From Candidatus Iainarchaeum sp. (GTDB lineage: Archaea; Iainarchaeota; Iainarchaeia; Iainarchaeales; GCA-2688035): a DNA stretch of 32,000 nucleotides. How positions within the stretch are numbered: position 1 is the stretch's first letter; each line of letters begins with the position of its first letter. Location: the NCBI GenBank assembly GCA_028713935.1, contig JAQTNI010000005.1, positions 7,582 through 39,581 of the forward strand, read 5' to 3'. The translations under genes were made by a program, and so were the position numbers. The notes below the pieces were generated by a model. It did no database searches and was not told the DNA's origin. It saw only the letters and a program-made list of their open reading frames with translations. Shown in pieces: positions 776 to 26,993 of the stretch.

Positions 776-805
776 GCTAGTTTTTCTACTTTTTTGGTTT
801 TGTTT

Positions 806-1537
806 ATGGCTGATGTGAAAAAAATTGTGAAAGAAAGTTATTCCAAAATAGCAAAAACAGGCCGCGGTTGTTCCTGCAATGCAAGCAAAGAAGATATTTC
901 AAAGCAGATTGGTTACAGTGATTCTGAATTGGCCAATGTGCCTGAAGCCAATATGGGCCTTGGCTGTGGCAATCCGACTGCTCTTGGGGAAATAAAACAA
1001 GGGGACACTGTTCTTGACCTTGGAAGCGGTGCCGGAATCGATTGTTTTTTGGCTTCAAAAAAAGTCGGAGAAAAAGGGAAAGTAATTGGAGTTGACATGA
1101 CTGAAGCAATGGTTGAAAAGGCAAGAAAAAACGCCGAAAAGTATAGCTACAAAAACGTTGAATTCCGCCTTGGAGAAATTGAAGCCTTGCCAATTGAAGA
1201 AAAATCAATTGATGTTATCATCAGCAACTGTGTGATTAATCTTTCCCCTGACAAGGAAAAAGTCTTCAAAGAGGCGAGGCGCGTTTTAAAAGAAAACGGC
1301 AGAATGTATGTTTCCGACATTGTTCTTTTGAAAGAGCTTTCGAAAGAGCAGAGAAAGGACAAAAAATTAATTGCAGGCTGTGTTGGCGGTGCGCTTTTGA
1401 AAGAGGATTACCTTGCAATAATAAAAAAAGCAGGCTTGAAAGCAAAAATCCTGCACGAAGACAAGCAAATAAGCAAGACACAATACAATGGCATCGCGCT
1501 TGAAAGCCTAAAACTGGAAATTACGCTTCAGAAATAA
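806..1537 (+). CDS. arsM: Arsenite S-adenosylmethionine methyltransferase (ArsM-like class I SAM methyltransferase)
   Basis: SAM motif I is [11 protein letters not shown]. ArsM-type conserved Cys contexts are [15 protein letters not shown] and IAGCVGGAL, plus an N-terminal CSC. ATG at 806 is preferred over the TTG at 794 used by the track. Confidence 0.8.
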
Positions 1538-6452: not shown

Positions 6453-7412
6453 TCAGGCTTGCGGCGCATAATACACTTTTTCTATTTTGAATATTGTTAT
6501 CCAGCTGAATTCTTTTATTATTTCCGGGAATTTTTGGCGGATTTCCCTCATAAGCTCGTGGAACTCTTTCGGGGTTTGCAGCATTGCTTCAAACTCGAGG
6601 TCTGAAACCCCAATTGCTTCTGTTACAAACATTACATTTGTTTTTGATTTTAAATAAGAAATCAGCCTTGAATATTTTTCTTCGGAAAGATTCTGCAGGC
6701 GCAGAAAAACCTTGTGCCAGGTATAGCCGATTTTTGAATAATCAAGCATGATCATATACCCAAGAATGAATTTATTTTTTTCAAGATTTTTTATCCTGTA
6801 TCTGGCTGCCTTGTCTGAAATGCCAAGCTGCTTTGCCATTTCAACAAGGGAAGTGCGGCTGTTCTTTGCAAGAACCTGCAGAATTTTTTCATCAACAGCA
6901 TCTATTTCAGAGCGCGAAAATTTTTGCTCCATCACAAGTTCATGCAGTGTTTTTTCTTTTGTAAGATACCTGTGCGAAATGTGGTGTGCCCTGACAATAA
7001 AAGAAATATCCACTTCTTTAAGGAAAGCCCCAAAATTAAAATTGAGCTCTTTCAATGCATTGTCAAAATCTTTCAAATCCTTTGACCAGAAAACCATTGC
7101 CATGTCATATGCGCCGTCAGTTTTCAGGACCCAGCCTGCATCGGGCATTTTCAGGCAGAATTTTATGATTTCATCTTCATTGTAACTGCCCTGCAGCTTA
7201 ATCCAGAGCCTTGCACTCAGCCTCTGCAGCCTGAAAATATCAATCACTGCATAATAACCAAGAATTATTTTTTCATGCTCAAGCTTCTCAAGGCGCTTCT
7301 TGACAGCCTGCTTTGAAAGCCTGACTTTTTTCGCAAGCGCAGAAACAGGCTGCCTTGAATCAATATCCAGCTCAACGAGAAGGCGCCTGTCTATTAAGTC
7401 CAAACCAAGCAT
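6453..7412 (-). CDS. Tandem-fused double Lrp/AsnC-family transcriptional regulator (two HTH + ligand-domain modules)
   Basis: Module 1 is IDRRLLVELDIDSRQPVSALAKKVRLSKQAVKKRLEKLEHEKIILGY. Module 2 is VDEKILQVLAKNSRTSLVEMAKQLGISDKAARYRIKNLEKNKFILGY. Each is followed by an ~80-aa alpha/beta domain. Confidence 0.85.
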   Translation of the reverse strand: MLGLDLIDRRLLVELDIDSRQPVSALAKKVRLSKQAVKKRLEKLEHEKIILGYYAVIDIFRLQRLSARLWIKLQGSYNEDEIIKFCLKMPDAGWVLKTDGAYDMAMVFWSKDLKDFDNALKELNFNFGAFLKEVDISFIVRAHHISHRYLTKEKTLHELVMEQKFSRSEIDAVDEKILQVLAKNSRTSLVEMAKQLGISDKAARYRIKNLEKNKFILGYMIMLDYSKIGYTWHKVFLRLQNLSEEKYSRLISYLKSKTNVMFVTEAIGVSDLEFEAMLQTPKEFHELMREIRQKFPEIIKEFSWITIFKIEKVYYAPQA

Positions 7413-7454
7413 AAATTAACAATTGTAAAAATCTATTAATAAATTTTTCCTTTT

Positions 7455-7476
7455 ATTCTTAAAATTCTTAAAAATT
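7455..7476 (+). promoter_or_regulatory. Tandem perfect 9-mers TTCTTAAAA x2 (TATA-like or Lrp operator) in the divergent promoter region
   Basis: Copies at 7456-7464 and 7465-7473, about 45 nt upstream of the first micro-ORF ATG. Archaeal TATA boxes are A/T-rich octamers near -26. Confidence 0.35.
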
Positions 7477-7517
7477 ATTATTAATGTGGCAAGCAGCTAT
7501 TAGTAGGTGGTGGTAAT

Positions 7518-7598
7518 ATGCAGAAGTGGATAACTGGCACTGTGGCAAAAAGGCACTGTAAAAATAAAACCAGTGGAGGCTGTTGTTCAAATCTTTAA
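7518..7598 (+). CDS. Micro-ORF A, 26 aa: MQKWITGTVAKRHCKNKTSGGCCSNL (candidate precursor peptide)
   Basis: ATG is preceded by GGTGGTGGTAAT, a strong SD-like motif. It is paralogous to micro-ORFs B-D. Its 3' end is homologous to ORF C at nucleotide level (AGTGG.GG...TGTTCAAAT.T.TAA). Confidence 0.5.
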   Translation: MQKWITGTVAKRHCKNKTSGGCCSNL

Positions 7599-7620
7599 AC
7601 GCAAAACTTGGGGTGAAAAA

Positions 7621-7704
7621 ATGGAAAAGAACTGGATTAAGAATACTTCAAAGAAAAGAGTATCTGCTTGCAAAACTCACGGCGGCATGGCTCCTCTTGT
7701 TTAG
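7621..7704 (+). CDS. Micro-ORF B, 27 aa: MEKNWIKNTSKKRVSACKTHGGMAPLV (candidate precursor peptide)
   Basis: ATG is preceded by GGGGTGAAAAA, the same SD type as the thermosome, Alba and SIMPL genes. It shares the N-terminal K-(N)-W-I, the basic middle and the GG motif. Confidence 0.5.
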   Translation: MEKNWIKNTSKKRVSACKTHGGMAPLV

Positions 7705-7712
7705 GCGATTGT

Positions 7713-7790
7713 ATGGAATGGATTGAATTCAAGAAATGCGAGAGAAACCTCAAGCAAAAGAGTGGCGGCGGGTTCTGTTCAAATTGTTAA
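7713..7790 (+). CDS. Micro-ORF C, 25 aa: MEWIEFKKCERNLKQKSGGGFCSNC (candidate precursor peptide)
   Basis: It starts 8 nt after the ORF B stop, with a weak SD (AGGCGA). The SGGGFCSNC tail is paralogous to SGGCCSNL of ORF A. Confidence 0.45.
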   Translation: MEWIEFKKCERNLKQKSGGGFCSNC

Positions 7791-7799
7791 GTGGAACTT

Positions 7800-7889
7800 A
7801 TGAAAAAATGGGTTAAAGGCTTGCTTGCTGAAAGGCAGAAGAAATCTGATAATAAAAGGTATGCGTCTGCATCAGATATCAGGTTATAG
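7800..7889 (+). CDS. Micro-ORF D, 29 aa: MKKWVKGLLAERQKKSDNKRYASASDIRL (divergent family member)
   Basis: It starts 9 nt after the ORF C stop. It shares the MKKWVKG N-terminus with ORF A (MQKWITG) but lacks the GG/Cys tail. Confidence 0.35.
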   Translation: MKKWVKGLLAERQKKSDNKRYASASDIRL

Positions 7890-7943
7890 CAGCACAGAAA
7901 TCTGAAAATAGTGCCGGCTTTTTTTTTCAATCAAGGATTTTCA

Positions 7944-9521
7944 ATGAAATGCATTTTGGTCCGTTTAAAGGACAATCGCAGCAGTGACGTTCTCTATTTT
8001 CCAAAAGTGGAAAGCCTTGCAATTGGATATCTTGCAGGTTACCTGCGCGCTAATTCTTTTGAAGCTGCAATTGTTGATGAAGAGCTTTCAGGCTCTTCAA
8101 GAGAGCAAACAATAAGACAATTGCGGGATTCTGATTTGATTGGTTTTACTGCAATAGCAAAAACACAGATTTTTCAGGTAATCGAAACAACCAAAGAGCT
8201 GAAAAAGAGCAGGTGCAATGCCCATATTTCAATTGGCGGGCATTATCCGAGTTTCTTGCATAAAGAACTTCTTTCCTTGAAAAATACTTTTGATTCTGTT
8301 GTAAGGTTTGAAGGCGAAGAAACTTTTTCAGAGCTTGCAGAGGCAATCGAAGAAAAAAAAGCCTTTTCTGGAATCAAAGGGCTTGCCTTCAAGCAAAATG
8401 GAAAGATAATTGAAAATGGATTGAGACCGCTTATTGAAGACCTTGATTCTGTTCCTTTTCCTGCAAGGGACACTTTGCCAATGGTTTTGGAACAGGGAGG
8501 GTTGCCTGTAATTTCTTCCAGCAGAGGCTGTTATAACAGCTGCAGTTATTGCTCTATCAGCAGTTTTTACTCTGCTCCTGGCGGAAAACAATTCAGGACA
8601 AGAAGTGCGGAAAACGTTTTGGCAGAGCTTAGCGAATTAAAACAAAATTTTCCCGCAATGAATGAAATCTGGTTTGTAGATGATAATTTTGTAATGCCTG
8701 GAAGCAAAGGATTAGAGAGAACAGTCAAACTCTGCAAAGGCATAAAAAATCTTGGCCTGGAATTCCAGATTTACTTGCGCGCCAACCACATCAACAAAAA
8801 ATTGCTGTGCCTGCTTAAGGCAAGCGGCCTGCAAAATATTTTTATTGGCGCCGAGGCAGCAAATGATTTTACTTTGCAGGCTCTTTTCAACAAAAATATT
8901 TCTGTGGAGCAAACCCGCAAAGCAATAAAACTGTGCAATCAAATGAAAATCAGCATTGACCCCGGCTTTATAATGTTTCATCCCTGGAGCACAATGAAAG
9001 AAATAGAAGAAAACATAAAATTCTTGGAAGAAACAAAACAATTCACTCTTTATGGCATTGCAAGCTTTCTCACGCCTTATTCCTTTACCCCAATTGGCAA
9101 AAAAATGCTCAGCAAAGAATTGGCCTACAAAAAGCCGGCTGTTCTGCCTGCACAGAAACTCAATGATTTTGTGCCTTATGAAATAATGAACGAAAAAGCA
9201 GAATTGTTGCTTTGCCTTACTCTGGATGCTTTCGAAGAATTCAGCCGACTGCCAAAAATTTTTTCAAAACTAAAGCAAAAAATAAGGAAGCTAAAATCTG
9301 AAAAAAATCAAGATGCGATTGTGCTTGAAAAAAAATGGCTTTTTGAAATCAAAAAAATGAACCAGTCAGGAATGCGCTTTTTCAAGGAATTGTTTTTTTT
9401 CATCAAGGCAGCAGAGTTAAGCGACAATGAAATAAAGCCTTTTTTTGAAAAATTCAGGGCAAGAATCAAGGCAGAAATTGAAGAAACAGCAAAAGGGCTG
9501 GAAGAACTGGTTAACAACTAA
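7944..9521 (+). CDS. Class B radical SAM enzyme (N-terminal B12-binding-like domain + radical SAM core + helical C-terminal extension)
   Basis: The N-terminal Rossmann-like region (LIGFTAIAKTQ...ISIGGHYPS...VVRFEGEETF) is typical of the cobalamin-binding domain. It is followed by the CxxxCxxC motif SSSRGCYNSCSYCS. ATG at 7944 (MKCILV) is preferred over GTG at 7911. Confidence 0.85.
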   Translation: MKCILVRLKDNRSSDVLYFPKVESLAIGYLAGYLRANSFEAAIVDEELSGSSREQTIRQLRDSDLIGFTAIAKTQIFQVIETTKELKKSRCNAHISIGGHYPSFLHKELLSLKNTFDSVVRFEGEETFSELAEAIEEKKAFSGIKGLAFKQNGKIIENGLRPLIEDLDSVPFPARDTLPMVLEQGGLPVISSSRGCYNSCSYCSISSFYSAPGGKQFRTRSAENVLAELSELKQNFPAMNEIWFVDDNFVMPGSKGLERTVKLCKGIKNLGLEFQIYLRANHINKKLLCLLKASGLQNIFIGAEAANDFTLQALFNKNISVEQTRKAIKLCNQMKISIDPGFIMFHPWSTMKEIEENIKFLEETKQFTLYGIASFLTPYSFTPIGKKMLSKELAYKKPAVLPAQKLNDFVPYEIMNEKAELLLCLTLDAFEEFSRLPKIFSKLKQKIRKLKSEKNQDAIVLEKKWLFEIKKMNQSGMRFFKELFFFIKAAELSDNEIKPFFEKFRARIKAEIEETAKGLEELVNN

Positions 9522-9606: not shown

Positions 9607-10068
9607 ATGAAGCTGACTTTCGTTGAGTTTCAAGGGGAAATTCCAGATATTGCGGCAGCTACTCTTGCTGCAATATCATACGACTCCAGAAATATTTCTC
9701 AGCCTCCTGAAGGAGCATTTAAACTTATTTCAAAAAGCATACAAGACAGGCTTGGAGCGGACAGTCATCTGAGAATAGCATTAGCAATGGATACTGATGT
9801 TCCAAAGCCGAATCCGGTTGGTTATATCGAGTATTCCGTGATTGACGGCAAAGTTTTTGCGCATGCGCGATATGTGCGTGGTGAAGGCAAGTCTTTTGGG
9901 ATTGTAAAAAAAAGACTGTTAGAACACATACGAAGACAGGGCGAGTTTCACTGTTGGACTCAAACCATAACTGGCAGGCGTGCTTTTCGTGCTGCTGAAT
10001 TAAGATTAGAACGAAAGCAAAAACGGGAACAAAGGAAAAGGTTCCCCCTGGGAAGGCGCCCCATATAG
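9607..10068 (+). CDS. Hypothetical protein, 153 aa, possible GNAT-like fold with an Arg/Lys-rich C-terminus
   Basis: AGGGG lies 8 nt upstream of the ATG. VRGEGKSFGIVKKRLLEHI loosely resembles the acetyl-CoA motif A (R-x-x-G-x-G/A). GC looks higher than in neighbouring genes. Family call is weak. Confidence 0.45.
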   Translation: MKLTFVEFQGEIPDIAAATLAAISYDSRNISQPPEGAFKLISKSIQDRLGADSHLRIALAMDTDVPKPNPVGYIEYSVIDGKVFAHARYVRGEGKSFGIVKKRLLEHIRRQGEFHCWTQTITGRRAFRAAELRLERKQKREQRKRFPLGRRPI

Positions 10069-10094: not shown

Positions 10095-10670
10095 TTAATT
10101 TTCCAGAATTTCCCTTATTTTTTTTGCAACGCTTCCTTTTGGATTTCTGAAAAGGAAGGCCTGCAATTGGTTGAAGTTTTTGCTTTTCCTTGCCTGAGAG
10201 GCTTTTTCAAAATCAATTATTATTGGCAGGAAATTTTTTTTCACCAAAATGTTTGCGCCCCTGCCTGCAAGCTGGCCATGGCTTAATCCGATTTCATCAA
10301 GTTTTTTTGCCTGTTCAAGAAGTGAATCAAGGCATTTCTGCAGATGTTTTTTTTGGGGATTTTGAAAAAGCCATTTTGAAAAAGGGATTCCTTCAATAAA
10401 TTCCATCAGCACAATTCTTTTTTCACAATCAAAGCAGATTAATTTCGGGCCAATTCCAATTCTGTTTGCGGCTTTCAAATTTGCAGCTTCTTTTTCAACC
10501 ATTCTTTTGCGCTGGCTTTTTTGCTTTTCAACTTTTGCGGCAAATTTTTTTCCTTTCCTGTTTTTCACCAAAAAAATTTCGCTGCTCCAGCCCTTTGAAA
10601 TTTTTTCAGCAAGCTCCAAGTTTTTTTCATTCAAAAATCCAGCCAATCGCAAAGCAGAATCAGGAATCAT
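10095..10670 (-). CDS. Small atypical protein kinase (RIO/Bud32/COG2112-like), ~191 aa
   Basis: The kinase subdomain order is visible: G-loop-like KGWSSEIFLV, FAAKV (Lys), EKEAANL (Glu), hinge LMEFIEG, catalytic HGQLAGRGANILV, and IIDFEKA (DFG-like). ATG is at 10670. A TTG at 10685 would overlap the upstream gene by 4 nt. Confidence 0.6.
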   Translation of the reverse strand: MIPDSALRLAGFLNEKNLELAEKISKGWSSEIFLVKNRKGKKFAAKVEKQKSQRKRMVEKEAANLKAANRIGIGPKLICFDCEKRIVLMEFIEGIPFSKWLFQNPQKKHLQKCLDSLLEQAKKLDEIGLSHGQLAGRGANILVKKNFLPIIIDFEKASQARKSKNFNQLQAFLFRNPKGSVAKKIREILEN

Positions 10671-10681
10671 AAAAACCAGTG

Positions 10682-11269
10682 TCAAGCGCCTGGCAAAATT
10701 ACATCAACAAGAATCCCTTTTGTCTTGCCCTGGTCAAGAAGCTCTTCAAGAGGCTGAAACACAGGGCCTTTCATATTATGCATTACCCAGTGAGTGCCAT
10801 TGCGTTTTCCAAGATACAATACTGTGTGGGTATAAAGCCTTCTTGGATGGCTTATTTGCTCTGGGCTCCAGGGCAGATAAATCCCCAACAGGCAGCCAGG
10901 CACAAGATGATTTTCAATTTTTTCCAATGGAACAACAGGCCTTTCAATTCTGCTTGAACCCCAACCAGTTTTTGTTGCAAGCCTTAAGGACAAATGATTC
11001 CATTTCGCCAGGTCCCATGCATGGCCTTTTTCATAATCCAGCCCGAAAATAATTTTTGCAACCCTTACAGCATAGCCAGCACAATTACCATCTTTGTTAA
11101 AATCCTTGGTTCTGCCTTTCCTGTCAGTTTCAATTGGAACACGAATTGCATTGCCGGTTCCAATTGCAGTTAATCCTGCCTGTGCAAGCCCCGGAATCCT
11201 TTCACTCCCTACTAAGTGGGAAACCCTTGGCTTAGAAAAAATCCTTTTCAGCCTGCGCATTCCCCTCAT
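10682..11269 (-). CDS. Putative papain-fold (NlpC/P60- or CHAP-like) cysteine peptidase/amidase, 195 aa
   Basis: The candidate nucleophile context is NCAGYAVRVAKIIFG, with downstream His residues (HTVLYLGKRNGTHWVMHN). The order and spacing fit papain-like hydrolases. No signal peptide is seen. GC is ~47% in sampled lines versus ~32% in the nearby islet. Confidence 0.45.
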   Translation of the reverse strand: MRGMRRLKRIFSKPRVSHLVGSERIPGLAQAGLTAIGTGNAIRVPIETDRKGRTKDFNKDGNCAGYAVRVAKIIFGLDYEKGHAWDLAKWNHLSLRLATKTGWGSSRIERPVVPLEKIENHLVPGCLLGIYLPWSPEQISHPRRLYTHTVLYLGKRNGTHWVMHNMKGPVFQPLEELLDQGKTKGILVDVILPGA

Positions 11270-13219: not shown

Positions 13220-13288
13220 AATTCAATTGTGAGCTTTGCTTTAATTTGATTGTAAATTTTGAAGAAATTGAATTGTGAATTTTGGAGG
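13220..13288 (+). repeat. Three tandem 23-bp repeats (consensus AATTNNATTGTRARYTTTG...) directly upstream of the thermosome start
   Basis: Units are at 13220-13242, 13243-13265 and 13266-13288. 14 of 23 columns are invariant. The last unit runs into the SD GGAGGGTGA. Confidence 0.55.
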
Positions 13289-13297
13289 GTGAGTTTT

Positions 13298-14944
13298 ATG
13301 GCGGACAATAATAATCAGCAGGTTGTTTTTCTTCCTGAGGGAAGCAAGAGGACAAGAGGAAGGGATGCGCAAAGAATAAATATTCTGATTGCAAAGGCTG
13401 TTGCGAATGCAGTCAAATCCACTTTGGGGCCGAAAGGAATGGACAAAATGATTGTGGATGAGCTTGGCGACATTACTATTTCGAATGATGGCGCAACAAT
13501 TCTCGGAGAAATGAGCATTGAGCATCCTGCGGGCAAAATGATGGTTGAAATTGCAAAAACCCAGGACCAGGAAGTTGGCGATGGAACAACCACTGCAGTT
13601 GTAATCGGCGGCACTCTTTTGAAAAATGCGGAAGAACTGCTTGACGATGAGATTCACCCGAGCATAATTATCAAGGGTTATAGGTTGGCTGCAAAAAAAG
13701 CAAAGGAAATTGTTGCTGAAATTGCAGAGCCGATTTCTTTCAAGGACACAAAAATTTTGAGGAACATTGCCCTGACTTCAATGACTGGAAAAGCCGCTGA
13801 ATCAGCTGAAGAACTCACTGACCTTGTTGTAAAGGCAATTACGCAGATTGCGGATGAAGAGGATGGAAAAATAAAAATTGACATTGACAATGTCAAGGTT
13901 GAGAAAAAGCATGGAGCTTCCCTTGCCGAAAGCCAATTGGTGCAGGGAATAATTGTTGACAAGGAAATAGTTCATAATGGCATGCCAAAAAAAATCAAGT
14001 CGGCAAGAATTGCCCTGGTTGATGCCGCTTTGGAAATAAAAGGGCCTGAAACAGACACAAAAGTGGAAATCAATTCTCCTGAACAATTGCAGTCTTTTTT
14101 GGACAAGGAAGAGGAAATGCTCAGGAAAATGGTTGACACAGTAAAAAAATCAGGTGCAAATGTCTTGGTTTGCCAGAAGGGAATTGACGATGTTGCACAG
14201 CACTTTCTTGCAAAAGAAGGAATTGCTGCTATCCGCAGAGTAAAGCAATCAGACATGGAGGCGCTTGCAAGGGCAACTGGCGCAAAAATTGTTTCTAGGA
14301 TACAGGACTTAACTGAAAAAGATTTGGGAAAAGCAGACCTTGTGCAGGAAAAGAAAATCGGCGGCGACTCAATGGTTTTCATTGAAGGCTGCAAAAACCC
14401 GAAAAGCGTTTCACTGCTGTTAAGGGGAGGCTCAGAGCATGTGGTTGAAGAAGCAGAAAGGGCAATCCACGATGCATTGATGGCAACAGCCACAGCAGTA
14501 AGAGACGGCAAAATTGTTTATGGCGGGGGAAGCCCTGAAATGGAAATGGCTGTAAGATTAAGGGAATTTGCCACTACAATCGGCGGAAAAGAGCAATTGG
14601 CAATAGAAGCCTTTGCCTCTACTTTGGAAGAAATCCCAAGGACTCTTGCAGAAACAGCGGGAATGGACCCATTGGAAACCCTTGTCAACTTAAGGTCAAA
14701 GCACAAGGCAAAAACAGGCAGGACAATTGGCGTTGATGTTTTCAATTCCACAATTGGGGACATGAAGCCATTGAATGTAGTTGAGCCTCTTTCAGTTAAA
14801 ATACAGGCAATCACTTCAGGAATAGAAGTAGCGGAAATGCTGCTGAGAATTGACGACATAATTGCCGGAAACAGCAAAAGGCCATCAATGCCCCCAGGCG
14901 GAATGGGCGGAGGCATGGGCGGAATGGGAGACATGGAAATGTAA
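13298..14944 (+). CDS. ths: Thermosome subunit (group II chaperonin)
   Basis: Motifs are [19 protein letters not shown] and [12 protein letters not shown], with a GGM-repeat C-terminus. ATG at 13298 follows GGAGGGTGA. Confidence 0.95.
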
Positions 14945-16970: not shown

Positions 16971-16998
16971 TTCCAAAACAAAAAAGAGCGTGGAAAAA

Positions 16999-19878
16999 AT
17001 GGGGAAACAATTGGAACAGTTTTCAAGGCAAAAGGAAGAGGAAATAAGGGAATTCTGGAAAAAACAGAAAATTTCAGAAAAGGCGCGCAGGCAGAATGCA
17101 AAATCCAAAAAAAAATTTTATTTTATGGATGGCCCGCCATATGCAACAGGCCATATTCACATGGGAACAGCCCTGAACAAGATTCTCAAGGATGTTGCAA
17201 TGAGAAGCAGGCGCATGCAGGGCTTTGATGTTTTTGACAGGCCAGGCTATGACACACACGGAATGCCAATTGAATACAAGGTAGAGCAGAAATTCGGCTT
17301 CCGCACCAAGGAGGAAATTGAAAAATTCGGCATTGAAAAATTTGTCCAGGAATGCAGGAAATTTGCAACAGAATTCATTGGAGTAATGAACAGTGAGTTT
17401 GATGATTTAGGCGTATGGATGGACTGGGAAAATCCTTACAAGACACTTGAAAATTCTTATATTGAATCAATCTGGTGGACATTCAAAAAAGCAGAGCAAA
17501 AAGGCTATTTGTACAAGGGTCTTTATCCTGTTCATGTCTGCCCGCAATGTGAAACAGTGGTTGCCTTCAATGAAATAGAATATTCAAAGCAGACAGACAC
17601 TTCTGTTTATGAAAAATTAAAGGTAAAAGGGACTGAAAACAAATATTTTGTGGTATGGACAACAACTCCCTGGACAATTCCTGCAAACACCGGAATAATG
17701 GTTCACCCGAATTTTGATTATGTCGAGGCACAGGTAGGCGGAGAAATCTGGATTATTGCAAAAGAAAGATTGCAGGGCTTAATGACTGCAATAGAAGCGG
17801 GCTATACAATTTTGCGCGAATTTAAGGGAAAAGAACTGGAAAACATGCAATATGAAAATCCCCTTGAAAAATATCTTGCGCTTCCCGAATTAAAAAATGC
17901 TTTCAGAGTGATACTTTCAGAGAGGTATGTGCATCTTGATGCAGGAACAGGCCTGGTTCACACTGCTCCAGGTCATGGAAAAGAAGATTTTGACGCCGGA
18001 AGAAAATCCGGCTTGCCAGCGATCTGCCCAGTTGGCTTGGATGGCTTAATGACAAAAGAAGCGGGAAAATATGCTGGCAAAAAAGCCAGGATTGTTGATG
18101 CGGAAATAATTGAAGACCTTAAAACAGAAAATGCTTTTGTTTATTCGCATCCAGAAACGCATGATTATCCAATCTGCTGGCGCTGCAAAAGCCCTTTGCT
18201 CATGCTTTCAGTTGACCAGTGGTTTTTAAGCATAAAAGAAATCCAGAAAAAAGCAATTGAACTGAATAAAGAAGTGAACTGGGTTCCTTCCTGGATGAAA
18301 GACAGGATGAATGACTGGCTTGAAAACATTTATGATTGGCCAGTGACAAGGGCAAGATATTGGGGAGCTCCCTGCCCTGTATGGGAATGCAAATGCGGAG
18401 AAAGGTTAGTAATCGGCTCTTTGAAAGAGCTTGAAAAAGCCTCTGGTCAGGAACTGAAAAGCCTTGAATTGCACAAGCCATACATTGATGAACAGGTGAA
18501 AATAAAATGCAGAAAGTGCGGCAATGAAATGAAAAGAGTTCCAGATATTCTTGATGTTTGGTTTGATGCAGGGGTTAGCAGCTGGGCAGCGCTTGGTTTT
18601 CCCCAGAGCAGCAAATTGTTTGATGCTTTCTGGCCAGCAGATTTGAACATTGAAGGCACAGATCAGGTAAGGGGCTGGTGGAATGCGCAATTGCTTTGCT
18701 CAATAATTTCTTTTGAAAAAAAGCCATTCAAGGCAATCGGCACTCACGGAATGGTTCTCGATTTGGGAAAGAAAAAAATGTCAAAATCATTCGGGAATGC
18801 TGTGCAGCCAAAAGAAGTTGTTGAAAAATATTCAAGGGATTACCTGCGATGCATGTTTGCAAAAAAAAGCACTGGCATTGACATGGCTTTTGACTGGGAA
18901 AGCCTCGAAGAAATCCACAGGTTTTTCAATGTTTTTTTCAACACATATAATTTTGCTGGAATGTATCTTTCAATTGATTTTTCAAAAATCCTAAAAACAA
19001 AAAAATTCTCTTCCAAAGGGCTTAACCCTGAAGACAAATGGATTTTAAGCAAATTCAATTCCCTTGCAAAAGAATGCATTGATTCATACAATAATTACGA
19101 ATTTTTCAGGGCAGCGAATGCAATAGAACAATTTGTAATGGAAGAACTAAGCAGGACTTACATAAAAATAATCCGCGACAGGACAGGCGGGAAAACACAA
19201 AAAGCGCTTGAAACTTCGCTTGGAACAGTATTGCTCGGCCTGCTAAGGCTTTCAGCGCCAATAATTCCGCATTCCTCTGAATTTGTTTACCGGGCACTGC
19301 GCTCAAAAACAATGCCTGAATCAGTGCACTTGCTGCAATTGCCAATGCCAGACAAAAAACTGGTTGATTCAAAGCTGGAAACAGAATTTGAAAAAACAAA
19401 GCAATTATTGCAGGCAGCGCTTGCACTGAGGGAAGAGCAAAAGCTCAGGCTCAGATGGCCTTTAAGGGGGCTTGTGATTGTTTCAAAAACAGGAAAAGAA
19501 TTCTCAGAAACAAAAAGCATAATTGCAACAATTGCAAACGTAAAAAAAGTTTCCGAATCAAAAGTTTCCCCTGAAGGAAATTTTGCAAAAAAAGAAATTG
19601 CAGGAATTTCATTGTTCCTGGACATTGCTGCTGATGCCGCTTTGAAAGAAGAATGGGAATTCCAGGAGCTCAGGAGAAAAATACAGGAACTGCGGAAAAA
19701 AGCAAACCTTGCACCAGGCCAAAAGGCAATTCTCCTGCTTGACTGCAGCGACCCGGCCTTTACAAAAAAATTTTCAAGGCAGATTGAAGAAGAAACAAGC
19801 ACAAAAATCAGGCCAGCAAAAGGGCAAATGGAAAAGCTCCTTGAAAGGGAATTTTTTGTGCAACTTGAAACCAAGTGA
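16999..19878 (+). CDS. ileS: Isoleucyl-tRNA synthetase
   Basis: PPYATGHIHMGTALNKILKD is the HIGH region with the IleRS-type LNKILKD. KMSKS is present (KKMSKSFGN). The editing-domain block is TTTPWTIPAN. ATG at 16999 is preferred, with GTG at 16990 as the alternative. Confidence 0.95.
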   Translation: MGKQLEQFSRQKEEEIREFWKKQKISEKARRQNAKSKKKFYFMDGPPYATGHIHMGTALNKILKDVAMRSRRMQGFDVFDRPGYDTHGMPIEYKVEQKFGFRTKEEIEKFGIEKFVQECRKFATEFIGVMNSEFDDLGVWMDWENPYKTLENSYIESIWWTFKKAEQKGYLYKGLYPVHVCPQCETVVAFNEIEYSKQTDTSVYEKLKVKGTENKYFVVWTTTPWTIPANTGIMVHPNFDYVEAQVGGEIWIIAKERLQGLMTAIEAGYTILREFKGKELENMQYENPLEKYLALPELKNAFRVILSERYVHLDAGTGLVHTAPGHGKEDFDAGRKSGLPAICPVGLDGLMTKEAGKYAGKKARIVDAEIIEDLKTENAFVYSHPETHDYPICWRCKSPLLMLSVDQWFLSIKEIQKKAIELNKEVNWVPSWMKDRMNDWLENIYDWPVTRARYWGAPCPVWECKCGERLVIGSLKELEKASGQELKSLELHKPYIDEQVKIKCRKCGNEMKRVPDILDVWFDAGVSSWAALGFPQSSKLFDAFWPADLNIEGTDQVRGWWNAQLLCSIISFEKKPFKAIGTHGMVLDLGKKKMSKSFGNAVQPKEVVEKYSRDYLRCMFAKKSTGIDMAFDWESLEEIHRFFNVFFNTYNFAGMYLSIDFSKILKTKKFSSKGLNPEDKWILSKFNSLAKECIDSYNNYEFFRAANAIEQFVMEELSRTYIKIIRDRTGGKTQKALETSLGTVLLGLLRLSAPIIPHSSEFVYRALRSKTMPESVHLLQLPMPDKKLVDSKLETEFEKTKQLLQAALALREEQKLRLRWPLRGLVIVSKTGKEFSETKSIIATIANVKKVSESKVSPEGNFAKKEIAGISLFLDIAADAALKEEWEFQELRRKIQELRKKANLAPGQKAILLLDCSDPAFTKKFSRQIEEETSTKIRPAKGQMEKLLEREFFVQLETK

Positions 19879-19884
19879 TAACAA

Positions 19885-20811
19885 ATGGAGAAACCGGATG
19901 AAATAATTGATTTTTCCCTTGAAGGAAAAAAAACTGCGAATGATTTTGTGCAGGGCCTTGCAGGGGTTGGGTTTCAGGCAGGGCATCTTGCAGAAGCAGT
20001 TGAATTGATTGAAAAAATGAAAAAGGAAAAGGCAACAATTTTTTTCGGCTTTACTGCAAATCTTGTTGCATCTGGCCTGCGAGGGATAATCGCTGAAATG
20101 TGCAAAAAAAAATTTGTCAATGTTGTTGTAACAACAGCGGGCGCGATTGACCATGACATAATAAAAACTTTCAAGCCTTACCTTAAAGGAAGCTTTAACC
20201 TTGATGACATTGGATTGCACAAAAAAGGGATTAACAGGCTTGGAAACATTCTTGTGCCTAATAAGCGCTTTGAATTGCTGGAAGAAAAAACACAGGCCTG
20301 GTTCAAAGAAATTTTTGCAAAGCAAAAAGCAATTTCTCCCAGCGCACTTGCAAAATTCTTCGGTGAAAAGCTTGATGAAACAAGCTTTTTGTATTGGTGC
20401 AATAAAAACAACATTCCTGTTTTCTGCCCCGGAATAACAGACGGGGCAATTGGCCTGCAAATGTATTTTTTCAAGCAGGACCACAAGGATTTTGTTGTTG
20501 ATGTAACAGGGGACATGAAACAGCTTGCAGACATTGTGCTTAATGCGGAAAAAACAGGTGCAATTGTTTTGGGAGGGGGAATCTCAAAGCACCACATTAT
20601 TGGAAGCAACATTGTCAGGGAAGGCCTGGATTTTGCTGTTTATGTCTGCACTGCCCAGGAATTTGACGGAAGCTTAAGCGGTGCCCAGACAAGGGAGGCA
20701 AAAAGCTGGGGAAAAATAAAAGAAGAAGCCAATTCAATAAATGTCAATTGCGATGCAACAATTGCCTTTTCCCTTATGGCGGCTGCATTGAAAGACAAGA
20801 AATTGCTGTAA
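19885..20811 (+). CDS. dys: Deoxyhypusine synthase
   Basis: FFGFTANLVASGLRGIIAEM...VVTTAGAIDHDI...GGGISKHH is typical of DHS. It starts 6 nt after the ileS stop. Confidence 0.9.
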   Translation: MEKPDEIIDFSLEGKKTANDFVQGLAGVGFQAGHLAEAVELIEKMKKEKATIFFGFTANLVASGLRGIIAEMCKKKFVNVVVTTAGAIDHDIIKTFKPYLKGSFNLDDIGLHKKGINRLGNILVPNKRFELLEEKTQAWFKEIFAKQKAISPSALAKFFGEKLDETSFLYWCNKNNIPVFCPGITDGAIGLQMYFFKQDHKDFVVDVTGDMKQLADIVLNAEKTGAIVLGGGISKHHIIGSNIVREGLDFAVYVCTAQEFDGSLSGAQTREAKSWGKIKEEANSINVNCDATIAFSLMAAALKDKKLL

Positions 20812-24673: not shown

Positions 24674-24824
24674 AACAAAATCAACCCTTTCAATTCATTA
24701 ATTCAATAATCAATAAACCTAATAGATTATTATACTGGTTAGGAATAAAAATAATAGTGTTTAAGCCTTTCGAAGCGCTCGCTGATGCTCGCTTTCGAAA
24801 ATCTTGGAAAACTAAGTGTTTGGC

Positions 24825-25835
24825 ATGGAAACAGAAAAACTAATGAAAACTGCTTCCCACGCAGTTCTGCTCGTTGTTTTGGTGCTGGTCCTGCTTGGAA
24901 TTCTCACCTGGACAGGTGTTTTGAGGCCAAGCCAGGTCCCAGTAGTTGGAAAAGCCTGGTGCAGTGTTTACTGGGGAGTAATGGGTTATTCCACTGGCGG
25001 CCCAAAAGTGCTTATTGTTTATGGCGATGACGGCCTTGGAAATCCAGATGGCCCTTGCGAAGCAGGCCTGCAGCAATGCAGCCTGAAAGAAATTCTTGCA
25101 AACCCAGAAATTTTAGGGGTAAGGGCTGACACAATGCGCTTAAGCAGCGTGAATCTCGGCAACCTTAAAAGTTACAGCCTTGTAATTGTTGAAAAAGCAA
25201 AAACAATGGAAACAAAATATATGCGGGCTTTCATTGATTATTATGCACAAGGAGGAAGATTAGTCTGGACAGGAGATGCAGGAACAGAACTGGGGCATGA
25301 TGATGAATATTTGTATACAAATGAAAGAAGCGAAACAGACGCAAACCAGATAATAGGGCCATGGGCGCGCAAGCAGGGCGATGTGGCTGTTTCACTTGAC
25401 CAATTGCTTTCAGTGGAATACACTGCAAATTACTGCACAATAAAAACCTGCCCAGCAGGCCAGGCAATTTATGTTGGAAAATTATCCCCTGAACCAACCG
25501 GAACACACCCGCTTATTTTTGGAATGGGCAATAATCTCCCACTGTATGTTTTCAAAGATGAGGATTTTTCAGTTGTAGAAACAATTGCAGGCGGAATAAC
25601 AACACAAGCCCTTACTCTTGATGTCCAATCAAACCTCGTGGGAACAAACGGCAAGGATTATGGAAACCAGCTTCCCCTGATTGTTGCAAGCGGAATGGGA
25701 GACAGGGCAGTTTACTATGCCTTGCCACCAGAATACTATGCAAACCCAAAGCTTTACAATTCCACAAAGCCAGGAACTCCAGGCCCGTATTTTTTGCCAA
25801 TAGAAAATTTGTACTATGGCATGATTTGCGGATAA
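24825..25835 (+). CDS. N-terminally membrane-anchored extracytoplasmic protein with a flavodoxin/GATase1-like (ThuA/DUF4159-like) module
   Basis: The TM helix is HAVLLVVLVLVLLGILTW. KVLIVYGDD...YSLVIVEKAKTM...FIDYYAQGGRLVWTGDAG fits the strand-helix pattern of class-I-amidotransferase-like sensor/anchor domains. ATG at 24825 is preferred. Confidence 0.6.
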   Translation: METEKLMKTASHAVLLVVLVLVLLGILTWTGVLRPSQVPVVGKAWCSVYWGVMGYSTGGPKVLIVYGDDGLGNPDGPCEAGLQQCSLKEILANPEILGVRADTMRLSSVNLGNLKSYSLVIVEKAKTMETKYMRAFIDYYAQGGRLVWTGDAGTELGHDDEYLYTNERSETDANQIIGPWARKQGDVAVSLDQLLSVEYTANYCTIKTCPAGQAIYVGKLSPEPTGTHPLIFGMGNNLPLYVFKDEDFSVVETIAGGITTQALTLDVQSNLVGTNGKDYGNQLPLIVASGMGDRAVYYALPPEYYANPKLYNSTKPGTPGPYFLPIENLYYGMICG

Positions 25836-25862: not shown

Positions 25863-26993
25863 ATGAAAATCTTTCCAAATGTGCCAATTGTTTACAAAAA
25901 CAATTTTCCAAAAAATTTTGTTAATGATGTGAACGGCTGGGGCTTTTCAAAAAAAGAACTGGCAGAAAACAAGGGAAAAATTCTTACTCTTGACATTGAT
26001 TTTGGAAATTCCTGCAGCCTTAATTGCCCCCACTGTTTCAGAAAAAACAACAAAGTTGATTCTGAAAAAAACAATCTGCTGAAATATGAGGATATAATTG
26101 GTATTATTAACCAGGCAAAAAAGCTTGGCCTGAAAACAGTGAAATTTTTGGGAGCTGGAGAGCCCTTTGAAAGCCCAAGGTTTTTGGAGTTTCTCGGATT
26201 TCTAAAAAAGTCAAATGTCACTCCGCTTATTTTTACAAAAGGCCATGTAATCGGCGATGACTCGCTTGTAAAAAAATATTATTCCCAGTATGGGCTTGAA
26301 ACAGGCACTGCTCTTATTGAAGAACTAAAAAAAGTGAATGCCAGCATTCTGCTTGGCTTCAATTCTTTTGACACTGAAATTCAGGACAAAATGGTTGGCG
26401 GAATAAAGGGATACACTTTGAAAAGAAACCGTGCCCTGGAATTGCTTGCAGAAGCGGGCTTTAACAAAAACCCGGTAAGAATTGCCTTGATTGCAACGCC
26501 AATAACAAAAACGAATTATTCTGAAATCTTTGAAATTTATTCATGGGCAAGGCAAAGGAATTTGTATATTGTTACCACACCCACAATGATTAGCGGCAGA
26601 TGCTCAAGAGGCGCTGCATGGAAAAAAATAACTCCTTCAAAAAAAGAGCTTGTTGATTTATACGCAAAAATTTACAAATTCAATATTGAAAAAGGAATCC
26701 AGACTCTGGAACAAATAAAAGAAGAAGGAATTTCAGCTTATGCAGGAGTCCATCCCTGTAACCAGGTTGCCTGCGGAATGTATGTTACACTAACAGGAAC
26801 TGTTTTGAGATGCCCTGGCGACGATACAACTGTGCTTGGAAATGTCAGGCAGGAATCCCTCAAGGAAATATGGGAAAAATCCGAGAATTACAAAAGAGCG
26901 GGGATGTTCAATTGTGGCTGCCCTCCAAAGCAAGGCAAATCAATTCCAAAAAATTTCTACTCTGATGTGCTAAAAAAATTGCAAAAAAATTAA
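25863..26993 (+). CDS. Radical SAM enzyme with a C-terminal SPASM/twitch-like Cys cluster
   Basis: CxxxCxxC is in DFGNSCSLNCPHCF. The C-terminal part has CGMYVTLTGTVLRC (a C-x(n)-G-x4-C half-motif) plus FNCGCPP, six Cys in total. AGGTGA lies 5 nt upstream of the ATG, and the gap to the upstream gene is only 27 nt. Confidence 0.85.
   Translation: MKIFPNVPIVYKNNFPKNFVNDVNGWGFSKKELAENKGKILTLDIDFGNSCSLNCPHCFRKNNKVDSEKNNLLKYEDIIGIINQAKKLGLKTVKFLGAGEPFESPRFLEFLGFLKKSNVTPLIFTKGHVIGDDSLVKKYYSQYGLETGTALIEELKKVNASILLGFNSFDTEIQDKMVGGIKGYTLKRNRALELLAEAGFNKNPVRIALIATPITKTNYSEIFEIYSWARQRNLYIVTTPTMISGRCSRGAAWKKITPSKKELVDLYAKIYKFNIEKGIQTLEQIKEEGISAYAGVHPCNQVACGMYVTLTGTVLRCPGDDTTVLGNVRQESLKEIWEKSENYKRAGMFNCGCPPKQGKSIPKNFYSDVLKKLQKN

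What the first reader, a model, noticed from the sequence alone, without database searches (positions are those of the whole stretch)
7518..7889. Four tandem unannotated micro-ORFs encode a paralogous peptide family with GG motifs and Cys-containing C-terminal tails
The ~500-nt 'empty' gap between the Lrp regulator and the radical SAM gene contains four back-to-back ORFs:
- A: MQKWITGTVAKRHCKNKTSGGCCSNL
- B: MEKNWIKNTSKKRVSACKTHGGMAPLV
- C: MEWIEFKKCERNLKQKSGGGFCSNC
- D: MKKWVKGLLAERQKKSDNKRYASASDIRL

The gaps between them are 22, 8 and 9 nt. They share an M-x-K-W-I/V start and a Lys/Arg-rich middle. In A-C a G-G(-G) motif is followed by only 5 residues.

A and C are also homologous at the DNA level at their 3' ends (AGTGG.GG...TGTTCAAAT.T.TAA), and both place a Cys four residues from the C-terminus (CSNL, CSNC).

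A and B carry the same strong SD-like motif (GGTGGTGG, GGGGTGA) seen before ths, albA and the SIMPL gene. Together, a conserved leader-like part, a double-glycine-like junction and a hypervariable short core are the classic shape of RiPP precursor families.
Basis: seen in the sequence. Interest (0 to 1): 0.85.

Follow-up and report, generated by a model that had tools for sequence, protein, structure and literature searches.

The report
Unannotated peptide genes beside archaeal radical-SAM enzyme

Summary
Four back-to-back micro-ORFs (25-29 aa) lie at 7518-7889 in a Candidatus Iainarchaeum (DPANN) genome and are not chance.

The same family occurs in about 20 related loci. It is always on the same strand, in the gap between a divergent tandem Lrp/AsnC regulator and a cobalamin-binding radical SAM gene. 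Nothing else is syntenic.

The peptides share an N-terminal M-x(1-3)-W-[IL]-x-x-[LV]-x-x-[KE]-R-Q leader-like segment. Their C-terminal cores fall into three conserved classes:
- Class 1, KR[HY]ASA[ST]DH: window D. It is universal and always next to the enzyme.
- Class 2, GG[FC]C[SPA]N[LFC]-stop: window A and C.
- Class 3, QPADMPFR or [MC]APLV: window B.

Synonymous codon turnover shows selection at the amino-acid level, and most ORFs have a GAGGTGA-type ribosome-binding site.

No Pfam or NCBIfam family, paper or gene call covers them. The enzyme has no close characterised relative; OxsB, TsrM and CysS are 14-18% identical.

The best reading is a minimal, lineage-specific RiPP-like cassette in which the B12-radical SAM enzyme modifies the cores. 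The chemistry is unknown and methylation is the default guess.

The GG is part of a conserved core motif rather than a cleavage junction, and the cores are not hypervariable.

The parts
6453..7412 (-). Tandem (two-unit) Lrp/AsnC-family transcription regulator, 319 aa, divergently transcribed from the peptide operon
   Evidence: There are two HTH_AsnC domains. Both halves (residues 4-120 and 171-309) align to full-length archaeal Lrp/FFRP structures such as LrpA and PH1519, and no AhbA/B appears among the hits. The gene is syntenic with the peptides and the rSAM in every locus that has enough upstream sequence, at 28-79% identity.
7413..7517 (.). Conserved divergent promoter/operator region. 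It holds an invariant palindrome ACAATTGT (7419-7426), an AT-rich TATA-like block for the regulator (TTAATAAATTT, 7436-7446), a TATA-like block for the peptide operon (AAAATTATTATTAAT, 7471-7485) and an SD-like GGTGGTGG (7506-7513).
   Evidence: Alignment A4 of 10 loci has 75% mean column identity and a near-constant length of 110-117 nt, although the rSAM proteins are only 60-70% identical. The palindrome was also reported (I6). Assigning these blocks as promoter and operator is inference.
7518..7598 (+). Micro-ORF A, 26 aa, class 2 (core GGCCSNL, Cys at position -4 from the C-terminus)
   Evidence: Leader-HMM E-value 1.8e-6. The class-2 motif recurs in 12 ORFs, counting three contig copies of one sequence, in window, L005, L151-L155 and L157, with synonymous codon variation.
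7621..7704 (+). Micro-ORF B, 27 aa, divergent class 3 (core GGMAPLV; compare L065 PACAPLV and the commoner QPADMPFR)
   Evidence: Leader-HMM E-value 5.1e-5. Class-3 relatives appear. GGGGTGA lies 4 nt before the ATG.
7713..7790 (+). Micro-ORF C, 25 aa, class 2 (core GGGFCSNC)
   Evidence: Leader-HMM E-value 0.0029. Its 3' end is homologous to that of A at the DNA level (D1).
7800..7889 (+). Micro-ORF D, 29 aa, class 1 (core KRYASASD), the universal member of the family, adjacent to the enzyme
   Evidence: The ortholog in L001 is MNRWIKVLFAKRQKKADEKRYASASDHSNSAI. The core motif was found in 22 places (18 distinct), all on the + strand just upstream of the rSAM. All four Ala codons are used, as are both Ser codon families and both Arg families.
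7919..7927 (+). T9 tract between the last peptide gene and the enzyme gene; a possible leaky archaeal terminator
   Evidence: Read directly. It is not conserved in most other loci, so this role is a weak inference.
7944..9521 (+). Cobalamin-binding (class B) radical SAM enzyme, 525 aa; the presumed peptide-modifying enzyme
   Evidence: Pfam B12-binding and Radical_SAM domains are both above gathering score. The CxxxCxxC motif (C196, C200, C203) is invariant. The AF2 model has pLDDT 89.6 and a C-terminal three-helix bundle at 417-524. The nearest solved structures are OxsB, TsrM, CysS, TokK, AprD4 and MgmA, at 14-18% identity. All NCBIfam hits are far below their cutoffs.

Best explanation
The four micro-ORFs are real, translated genes for precursor-type peptides of a lineage-specific (Iainarchaeum/Diapherotrites, DPANN) peptide-modification cassette. 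The cassette has three parts: a divergent tandem Lrp/AsnC regulator, one to five tandem peptide genes, and a single cobalamin-dependent radical SAM enzyme.

**Proposed mechanism**
1. The peptide genes are transcribed from a conserved promoter that the regulator controls.
2. Each peptide is translated from its own Shine-Dalgarno site.
3. The conserved N-terminal amphipathic segment (W-[IL]-x-x-[LV]-x-x-[KE]-R-Q) docks the peptide on the enzyme. Docking is probably on the C-terminal helical bundle, because no RRE domain is present.
4. The enzyme then modifies a residue in the short C-terminal core by radical chemistry.
5. The default expectation for this enzyme class is methylation of an unactivated carbon. 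A cross-link or rearrangement is also possible.

Class 1 (KR[HY]ASA[ST]DH; window D) is the universal substrate. Classes 2 (A, C) and 3 (B) appear to be duplicated paralogues with new cores.

**Shown:** the genes, their conservation, their linkage to the enzyme and regulator, and the enzyme class.
**Inferred:** that the peptides are substrates, how the leader is recognised, the chemistry, and the role of the product.
For: **Linkage**
- Family members lie upstream of every intact Iainarchaeum-type ortholog of the rSAM that has enough upstream sequence. They are always on the same strand, between the tandem Lrp and the rSAM.
- I scored a leader HMM against 8700 small ATG-ORFs from 1.07 Mb, both strands. 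The top 34 hits all fall in that gap.

**Selection on the amino-acid sequence**
- In class 1, Ala uses GCA/C/G/T, Ser uses TCN and AGY, and Arg uses AGR and CGN.
- Classes 2 and 3 show comparable synonymous variation.

**Bipartite conservation**
- One shared leader is combined with three alternative cores.
- Copy number varies from 1 to 5, with the order 2, then 3, then 1, then rSAM in 14 of the 15 loci classified; the window itself is 2-3-2-1.
- This is what duplication and divergence of substrates for one enzyme predicts.

**Translation and regulation signals**
- GAGGTGA-type ribosome-binding sites lie 4-9 nt before most of the ORFs.
- The divergent promoter region is conserved.

**Distribution of class 1**
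- The class-1 core persists down to 45% rSAM identity, including a long-leader form of 62-67 aa.
- An exhaustive profile search of 1.84 billion representative proteins finds only 10 clusters, all with the same core.

**Enzyme**
- The enzyme is a bona fide class B radical SAM. This class includes peptide- and protein-modifying methylases such as MgmA, which is hit.
Against: - No experiment or expression data exist, so modification is purely inferred from gene linkage.
- No leader peptidase, exporter, immunity gene or RRE domain is in the cassette.
- The class-1 core is nearly invariant. That is unusual for antimicrobial RiPPs and fits a cofactor-like, signalling or regulatory role better.
- The three core classes share no obvious common target residue.
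- The nearest non-archaeal homologues of the enzyme (34-36% identity) have no micro-ORFs. They sit with an amino-acid ABC transporter and an M24 peptidase instead, so the enzyme clade is not intrinsically peptide-linked.
- One lineage (L148/L149, rSAM 81% identical) lacks the class-1 ORF in the 154 nt upstream, and its rSAM has a truncated N-terminus.
- Pairwise comparisons of close relatives show many non-synonymous changes outside the motifs.
Confidence: 0.6

Rival explanations
1. The micro-ORFs are regulatory upstream ORFs (ribosome-arrest or attenuation peptides). Translating them would tune expression of the downstream radical SAM gene in response to a metabolite. Their conserved amino-acid sequence would act inside the ribosomal exit tunnel rather than as an enzyme substrate.
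For: - The class-1 ORF always lies immediately upstream of the rSAM, on the same strand.
- The conserved stretch from W to DH is about 25 residues, roughly the length of the exit tunnel.
- The residues after DH are variable or absent. This is tolerated if the functional event happens at DH.
- In the window a T9 tract follows D.
Against: - Up to five tandem paralogues occur, each with its own strong SD and with distinct conserved C-termini. A single-sensor attenuator does not predict this.
- The long-leader relatives (62-67 aa) are conserved well beyond tunnel length.
- The spacer between the class-1 stop and the rSAM start varies from about 25 to 100 nt, and neither its sequence nor the T-tract is conserved.
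- No Rfam element or terminator-like hairpin was found.
- To my knowledge, no such mechanism is established in archaea.
Confidence: 0.1
2. The peptides are unmodified small proteins that work with the cassette in some other way. They could be accessory subunits or substrate-binding 'tails in trans' for the radical SAM enzyme, or ligands or anti-regulators of the tandem Lrp. The enzyme's true substrate would then be a small molecule such as an amino-acid derivative.
For: - The regulator is of the amino-acid-sensing Lrp/AsnC type.
- Bacterial homologues of the enzyme sit with amino-acid transporters and an M24 peptidase and have no peptide genes.
- Related B12-type rSAM families carry functional Cys-rich C-terminal tails in cis. 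ArsL's RCCLKC tail binds its arsenite substrate (NF040542 hit at 90 bits). Class-2 peptides end in GCCSNL or GCCPNF.
- No protease or exporter is present.
Against: - A shared leader combined with three alternative cores, and a variable copy number, fits substrates better than a stoichiometric subunit.
- Class 1, the universal member, has no Cys in its conserved core.
- NCBIfam scores for the tail-bearing families are far below cutoff: 90 against 450, and 70 against 500.
Confidence: 0.2
3. The ORFs are chance open frames in an AT-rich intergenic region, and their similarity reflects low-complexity or repeated DNA.
For: - They are very short (25-29 aa) and Lys/Arg-rich.
- They lie in a 38% GC region.
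- They were never called as genes.
Against: - Shuffling test: 4 of 5000 shuffles reach four ORFs, and 0 of 5000 have two ORFs with the N-terminal motif.
- Reading frames are intact in about 20 loci, with 42 family members tabulated.
- Synonymous codon turnover occurs at conserved residues.
- SD motifs are conserved.
- Only one short DNA repeat lies inside the ORFs, and it corresponds to the shared class-2 core.
Confidence: 0.02

Closest known systems
RiPP pathways that use cobalamin-dependent radical SAM C-methyltransferases (proteusins/polytheonamides PoyB/PoyC; NCBIfam TIGR03975 'RiPP maturation radical SAM C-methyltransferase'; ApyD, NF050148)
   Same: Small ribosomal precursor genes sit next to a B12-binding radical SAM enzyme. 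A conserved leader precedes a short modified core, and there are several precursor paralogues per cluster.
   Different: - The enzyme scores 59.7 bits against a cutoff of 281.85 (TIGR03975), and 122 against 750 (ApyD).
- The peptides match no NHLP/Nif11 or any other Pfam or NCBIfam leader family.
- No epimerase, MNIO, protease or transporter partner is present.
- The cassette is archaeal, and its only other component is a tandem Lrp regulator.
Peptide-derived cofactor systems made by radical SAM enzymes (PQQ: PqqA/PqqE; mycofactocin: MftA/MftC)
   Same: A very short precursor with a near-invariant core is encoded directly upstream of its radical SAM enzyme. Its distribution follows the enzyme, and no exporter or immunity gene is present.
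   Different: - Those enzymes are SPASM-domain proteins with an RRE partner (PqqD, MftB), and further tailoring enzymes follow.
- Here the enzyme is class B (B12 domain, no SPASM, no RRE) and stands alone.
- The extra core classes 2 and 3 have no counterpart in those systems.
Archaeal class B radical SAM protein methylases of methyl-coenzyme M reductase (MgmA/QCMT, TIGR04014; Mmp10)
   Same: These are archaeal, cobalamin-dependent radical SAM enzymes that methylate an sp3 carbon of a residue in a polypeptide. MgmA is among the structural neighbours (rank 16).
   Different: - Their substrate is a large enzyme subunit, not a dedicated micro-peptide.
- The TIGR04014 score is 69.9 against a cutoff of 360.
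- They have no associated peptide genes or Lrp regulator.
Double-glycine (class II bacteriocin / PCAT-processed) leader peptides
   Same: A, B and C contain GG close to the C-terminus, and the peptides are small and cationic.
   Different: - GG is followed by only 5 residues that are themselves conserved together with the GG.
- Class 1 and most class 3 members lack GG.
- No C39 peptidase or ABC transporter was found.
ArsL and 'RCCLKC-tail' / 'CUAEP-CCAEP-tail' B12-type radical SAM proteins (NF040542, NF040546)
   Same: These are related B12-domain radical SAM enzymes in which a short Cys-Cys C-terminal tail is functionally essential, because it binds the substrate. Class-2 peptides end in ..GCCSNL..GCCPNF or ..GFCSNL.
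   Different: - In those proteins the tail is part of the enzyme, whereas here the motif sits on separate peptides.
- The scores are far below cutoff.
- The universal class-1 peptide has no Cys motif.

Membership tests
RiPP precursor/maturase cassette (generic definition) | Small ribosomally encoded precursor gene(s) adjacent to and co-oriented with a tailoring enzyme | tested here: met
   One to five micro-ORFs lie directly upstream of the B12-rSAM in about 20 loci.
RiPP precursor/maturase cassette (generic definition) | Bipartite precursor: a conserved leader for enzyme recognition and a separate core | tested here: met
   The leader W-[IL]-x-x-[LV]-x-x-[KE]-R-Q is shared by all classes. Three distinct core classes exist. 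That the leader has a recognition function is inferred.
RiPP precursor/maturase cassette (generic definition) | Enzyme-dependent covalent modification of the core | not testable with these tools
   This needs co-expression and mass spectrometry.
RiPP precursor/maturase cassette (generic definition) | Leader removal and/or export functions (protease, transporter) in the cluster | tested here: not met
   Only the regulator, the peptides and the rSAM are syntenic. No peptidase or ABC transporter appears among the 20 window ORFs scanned. Not every RiPP cluster has this feature.
Proteusin / TIGR03975-type B12-rSAM C-methyltransferase RiPPs | Enzyme reaches the family model cutoff | tested here: not met
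   TIGR03975 scores 59.7 bits against 281.85, and ApyD NF050148 scores 122 against 750.
Proteusin / TIGR03975-type B12-rSAM C-methyltransferase RiPPs | NHLP or Nif11-type leader on the precursor | tested here: not met
   The peptides have no Pfam or NCBIfam hit at E <= 10.
Class B (cobalamin-dependent) radical SAM superfamily | N-terminal B12-binding Rossmann domain plus a radical SAM core with CxxxCxxC | tested here: met
   PF02310 scores 57.7 bits (cutoff 32.1) and PF04055 scores 60.7 (cutoff 29.5). C196/C200/C203 are invariant. Fold matches to OxsB, TsrM, CysS and TokK have E-values from 1e-25 to 1e-16. Actual cobalamin binding was not tested.
Double-glycine leader / PCAT-processed bacteriocins | GG at the leader-core junction in all precursors, with a C39-peptidase ABC transporter | tested here: not met
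   GG is confined to class 2 and to window B, and it is part of the conserved terminal motif. No C39 peptidase or ABC transporter was found.
Lrp/AsnC (FFRP) transcription regulators (for the neighbour 6453-7412) | HTH_AsnC DNA-binding domain followed by an effector (RAM) domain | tested here: met
   There are two HTH_AsnC domains. Both halves align over the full length of solved Lrp/FFRP proteins. NCBIfam equivalog cutoffs are not reached (LysM 82 against 180), so it is a family member but not an ortholog of a named regulator.
Siroheme decarboxylase AhbA/B-NirDL (Lrp-like enzymes; considered for 6453-7412) | Match to the AhbA/AhbB/NirDL models or structures | tested here: not met
   AhbA scores 24 bits against 140, and AhbB 17.8 against 125. 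No AhbA/B structure appears among the 25 PDB hits.

The most novel reading that the evidence does not exclude
The cassette may be a minimal, self-contained system for a peptide-derived cofactor or signal, specific to DPANN archaea. In this reading a lone cobalamin-dependent radical SAM enzyme converts the invariant KR[HY]ASA[ST]DH core into a conserved modified peptide. The tandem Lrp regulator encoded next door senses that product or its precursor, closing an autoregulatory or cell-cell signalling loop. Classes 2 (C-terminal GG-x-C-x-N-x, Cys at -4) and 3 (ADMPFR) would be neofunctionalised products of the same enzyme. That would be a new RiPP class, a first for this archaeal lineage, and possibly new class B radical SAM chemistry.
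Probability: 0.2. Interest if true: 0.85.

Novelty: new variant of a known kind. Interest (0 to 1): 0.62.

Why it matters
DPANN archaea have tiny genomes and are thought to carry little specialised metabolism. Very few archaeal RiPPs of any kind have been characterised. I found no Pfam or NCBIfam family, no paper and no gene call for these peptides.

A conserved module of regulator, peptides and B12-radical SAM enzyme gives three things:
- A concrete, cloneable test case of one enzyme and four 25-29 aa substrates, for discovering what an uncharacterised clade of class B radical SAM enzymes does.
- A case in which standard annotation misses an entire conserved gene family because its members are shorter than 30 codons.
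- A possible handle on signalling or cofactor biology in an uncultivated symbiotic lineage.

Tried and rejected
**Searches and tests that found nothing**
- Pfam and NCBIfam scans of the peptides at E <= 10 gave no hit.
- An Rfam scan of 7300-8050 at E <= 1 found nothing, so a riboswitch or sRNA explanation is dropped.
- The sigma-70 promoter and hairpin-terminator scan found no terminators, and its promoter hits were at background level; the model does not suit archaea anyway.
- Literature searches for DPANN or Iainarchaeum with radical SAM and RiPP, and for the core motif strings, found no description.

**Ideas tested and rejected**
- The tandem Lrp is not an AhbA/B-type siroheme decarboxylase with the rSAM as a tetrapyrrole enzyme. 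The Lrp matches regulators, not AhbA/B.
- The double-glycine/PCAT idea was rejected.

**Analyses with limited power**
- Pairwise dN/dS-style counts on close locus pairs were not informative alone. There are too few sites, and many changes fall outside the motifs. Motif-level codon turnover across many loci was used instead.
- The AF2 model of the long-leader precursor is poor (pLDDT 60). Only a moderately confident helix covers the leader motif, so I did not run a fold search on it.
- The first profile search failed because the first sequence was shorter than 40 aa. I repeated it with a longer first row.
- Bacterial homologues at 33-36% identity were checked for micro-ORFs and none were found.
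Full report
**1. What is in the window**

Reading 6800-8400 and listing ORFs confirms four ATG-initiated micro-ORFs on the + strand:
- A: 7518-7598, MQKWITGTVAKRHCKNKTSGGCCSNL
- B: 7621-7704, MEKNWIKNTSKKRVSACKTHGGMAPLV
- C: 7713-7790, MEWIEFKKCERNLKQKSGGGFCSNC
- D: 7800-7889, MKKWVKGLLAERQKKSDNKRYASASDIRL

They are separated by 22, 8 and 9 nt. Upstream, on the opposite strand, is a 319-aa protein with two HTH_AsnC domains (6453-7412). Downstream is a 525-aa protein with a B12-binding domain and a radical SAM domain (7944-9521). The enzyme is 100% identical to an NCBI protein from a Candidatus Iainarchaeum MAG, a DPANN archaeon.

The arrangement is not chance. In 5000 dinucleotide-preserving shuffles of the 531-nt gap, four non-overlapping ORFs of at least 25 aa arose 4 times. 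Two ORFs with the M-x(1-3)-W-[ILVM] start never arose, whereas all four real ORFs have it.

None of the four sequences, nor their GTG/TTG-extended forms, is present among 15 billion predicted proteins, so they have never been called as genes. Rfam finds nothing in the region.

**2. Comparative evidence that these are genes**

I used an alignment of rSAM orthologs (A1) to fetch related loci from genomes and metagenomes. More came from exact-protein look-ups.

Every intact Iainarchaeum-type locus with enough upstream sequence has micro-ORFs of the same family, on the same strand, in the gap before the rSAM. I tabulated 42 peptides from 15 loci of the short-leader clade.

A profile of the first 16 residues was scored against all 8700 ATG-ORFs of 15-90 aa in 1.07 Mb of fetched DNA plus the whole window, on both strands. 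The top 34 hits all lie in that gap, and unrelated ORFs begin only at E > 1.

The leader consensus is M-x(1-3)-W-[IL]-x-x-[LV]-x-x-[KE]-R-Q. The hydrophobic i, i+1, i+4 spacing suggests an amphipathic helix, and a low-confidence AF2 model of a long-leader relative puts a helix there.

**3. Three conserved core classes, not a hypervariable core**

- **Class 1, [KQ]R[HY]AS[AVS][STA][DN](H).** This is window D. It occurs in every intact locus, always as the last peptide gene before the rSAM. It persists down to 45% rSAM identity, where the leader is 62-67 aa long (...GFLELVVAEAQEGRVEKRHASATDHADN..).
- **Class 2, G-G-[FCY]-C-[SPA]-N-[LFC]-stop.** This is window A and C. The Cys is usually the fourth residue from the C-terminus.
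- **Class 3, Q-P-A-D-M-P-(F)-R, with variants.** Window B (GGMAPLV) resembles L065 (PACAPLV).

Gene order is class 2, then 3, then 1, then rSAM in 14 of the 15 loci; the window is 2-3-2-1.

Selection acts on the amino acids. In the eight class-1 core codons the invariant Ala uses all four codons, the invariant Ser uses both TCN and AGY, and the invariant Arg uses AGA, AGG, CGC and CGG. Second codon positions are almost fixed. Classes 2 and 3 show the same kind of synonymous variation.

The class-1 motif occurs in 22 places, all on the + strand just upstream of an rSAM. It occurs nowhere else in six-frame translations of all the DNA held.

Most ORFs are preceded at 4-9 nt by GAGGTG(A) or AGGTGA, which often overlaps the previous stop codon. 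This matches the archaeal anti-Shine-Dalgarno sequence (my own knowledge).

Pairwise comparison of close loci shows that positions outside the motifs change quickly.

**4. The module**

Blast of all ORFs in 13 orthologous loci against the window shows that only three things are syntenic: the tandem Lrp, the peptide gap and the rSAM. Flanking genes differ from locus to locus, and no protease or transporter is attached.

The 105-nt region between the regulator's ATG and the first peptide ATG is strikingly conserved. Mean column identity is 75% and length is nearly constant across genomes whose rSAM proteins are only 60-70% identical. It contains an invariant perfect palindrome ACAATTGT (7419-7426) and two AT-rich TATA-like blocks. 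I infer divergent promoters with an Lrp operator, but this is not shown.

Both halves of the regulator align to full-length archaeal Lrp/FFRP structures and not to the Lrp-like siroheme decarboxylases.

**5. The enzyme**

- The CxxxCxxC motif is invariant.
- The AF2 model is confident (pLDDT 89.6). It shows a Rossmann B12 domain, a radical SAM barrel and a C-terminal three-helix bundle at 417-524.
- The nearest solved structures are OxsB, TsrM, CysS, TokK, AprD4 and the MCR glutamine methylase MgmA, all at 14-18% identity.
- The best NCBIfam hits (HpnJ, BchE, ApyD, PhpK and others) are three- to six-fold below their cutoffs.
- So it is a class B radical SAM of unassigned function. No RRE or SPASM domain is detected.
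- The nearest non-archaeal homologues (34-36% identity) have neither micro-ORFs nor the Lrp. They are coupled to a Liv-type ABC transporter, SAM methyltransferases and an overlapping M24 peptidase.

**6. Distribution and prior knowledge**

A word-indexed profile search of 5.8 billion proteins found 16 called class-1 relatives, none named beyond 'hypothetical protein'. An exhaustive HMMER search of 1.84 billion cluster representatives found only 10 clusters, all with the same core.

The peptides have no Pfam or NCBIfam model. Literature searches found no description of this system. A 2025 survey of archaeal RiPPs lists only YcaO, ranthipeptide/sactipeptide, lanthipeptide and lasso classes.

**7. 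Interpretation**

The most economical reading is a minimal RiPP-like cassette. One enzyme, one shared recognition leader and alternative cores are what duplication and divergence of substrates predicts.

The default chemistry for class B enzymes acting on peptides is C-methylation. Other outcomes are known for B12-rSAMs in RiPP clusters and for OxsB-type enzymes, so the chemistry remains open.

The near-invariance of the class-1 core and the absence of export or immunity genes point towards an intracellular cofactor-like or signalling product rather than a diversifying toxin. This is inference.

Rivals:
- Regulatory arrest or attenuation uORFs. These are disfavoured by the multiple SD-led paralogues, by long-leader conservation beyond exit-tunnel length, and by the unconserved spacer.
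- Unmodified accessory micro-proteins, for example Cys-Cys 'tails in trans' by analogy with ArsL's RCCLKC tail.
- Chance ORFs, which the comparative data refute.

**8. Exceptions and caveats**

- In L155 the class-1 ORF has ACG where the others have ATG.
- L148/L149 (rSAM 81% identical) have an N-terminally truncated rSAM and no class-1 ORF in the 154 nt available upstream. This may be a decaying locus.
- Window D itself lacks the usual His after the Asp (ASASD-IRL).
- No expression or chemical data exist.

**9. Verdict**

The feature is a new, lineage-specific variant of the 'radical SAM enzyme plus precursor peptides' theme, and it is worth experimental follow-up.

Noticed in passing
window 25863-26993 (+), with 24816-25835 (+) upstream: There is a second, unrelated radical SAM/SPASM protein (376 aa). 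Its best NCBIfam hits are far below cutoff (tungsten-cofactor maturase 59 bits against 380; WgkB, mycofactocin maturase). It is preceded by a 339-aa ORF with no family. It could be another peptide or cofactor maturase.
   Followed up: partly
window 10095-10685 (-): A Bud32/RIO-like small kinase lies just downstream of the B12-rSAM, convergent with it. It is syntenic only in the closest relative, L001, so it is probably not part of the cassette. The class-1 core (KR-x-A-S-A-S-D) does look like a basophilic Ser-kinase site.
   Followed up: partly
window 9607-10068 (+): This 153-aa ORF has no Pfam or NCBIfam hit. It occupies a 573-nt gap that is absent in L001, where the rSAM stop and the kinase stop are 5 nt apart. 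It is a lineage-specific insertion or a spurious ORF.
   Followed up: no
window 7419-7426 and alignment A4: The perfect palindrome ACAATTGT is invariant across 10 loci, between the regulator's ATG and its putative TATA box. It is a candidate operator for the tandem Lrp.
   Followed up: partly
L155 1463-1560: The class-1 ORF is intact, but it has ACG in the position of the ATG start, after a normal AGGTGA SD. This could be a non-canonical start, a recent start loss or an assembly error.
   Followed up: no
L148 1-170 and L149 1-60: Two independent contigs carry an 81%-identical rSAM that lacks the first ~16 codons. They have unrelated sequence, and no class-1 ORF, upstream. This may be a decaying or rearranged copy of the cassette.
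   Followed up: partly
L009 3995-6683; L073 81-7686: The nearest bacterial homologues of the rSAM (34-36% identity, Deltaproteobacteria) sit in an operon with a Liv-type branched-chain amino-acid ABC transporter and SAM methyltransferases. A start/stop-overlapping M24 (Xaa-Pro/creatinase-type) peptidase follows. There are no micro-ORFs and no Lrp.
   Followed up: partly
L067 4757-4960, L068 1703-1906, L072 566-766; P0121-P0130: A long-leader subfamily of the class-1 peptide (62-67 aa) has a conserved N-terminal extension (..Y.G..V.G.P.KVSV.Y.P..W.LSRQD.GFLELVVAEAQ) and an invariant tail KRHASA[ST]DHADN. Several of its members were called as hypothetical proteins.
   Followed up: partly
window 794-1537 (+), 13259-14944 (+), 16990-19878 (+), 19885-20811 (+): The rest of the window is ordinary archaeal housekeeping: a SAM methyltransferase, the thermosome subunit, a class I aminoacyl-tRNA synthetase and deoxyhypusine synthase. 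So the cassette sits in core chromosome, not in an obvious mobile element.
   Followed up: no
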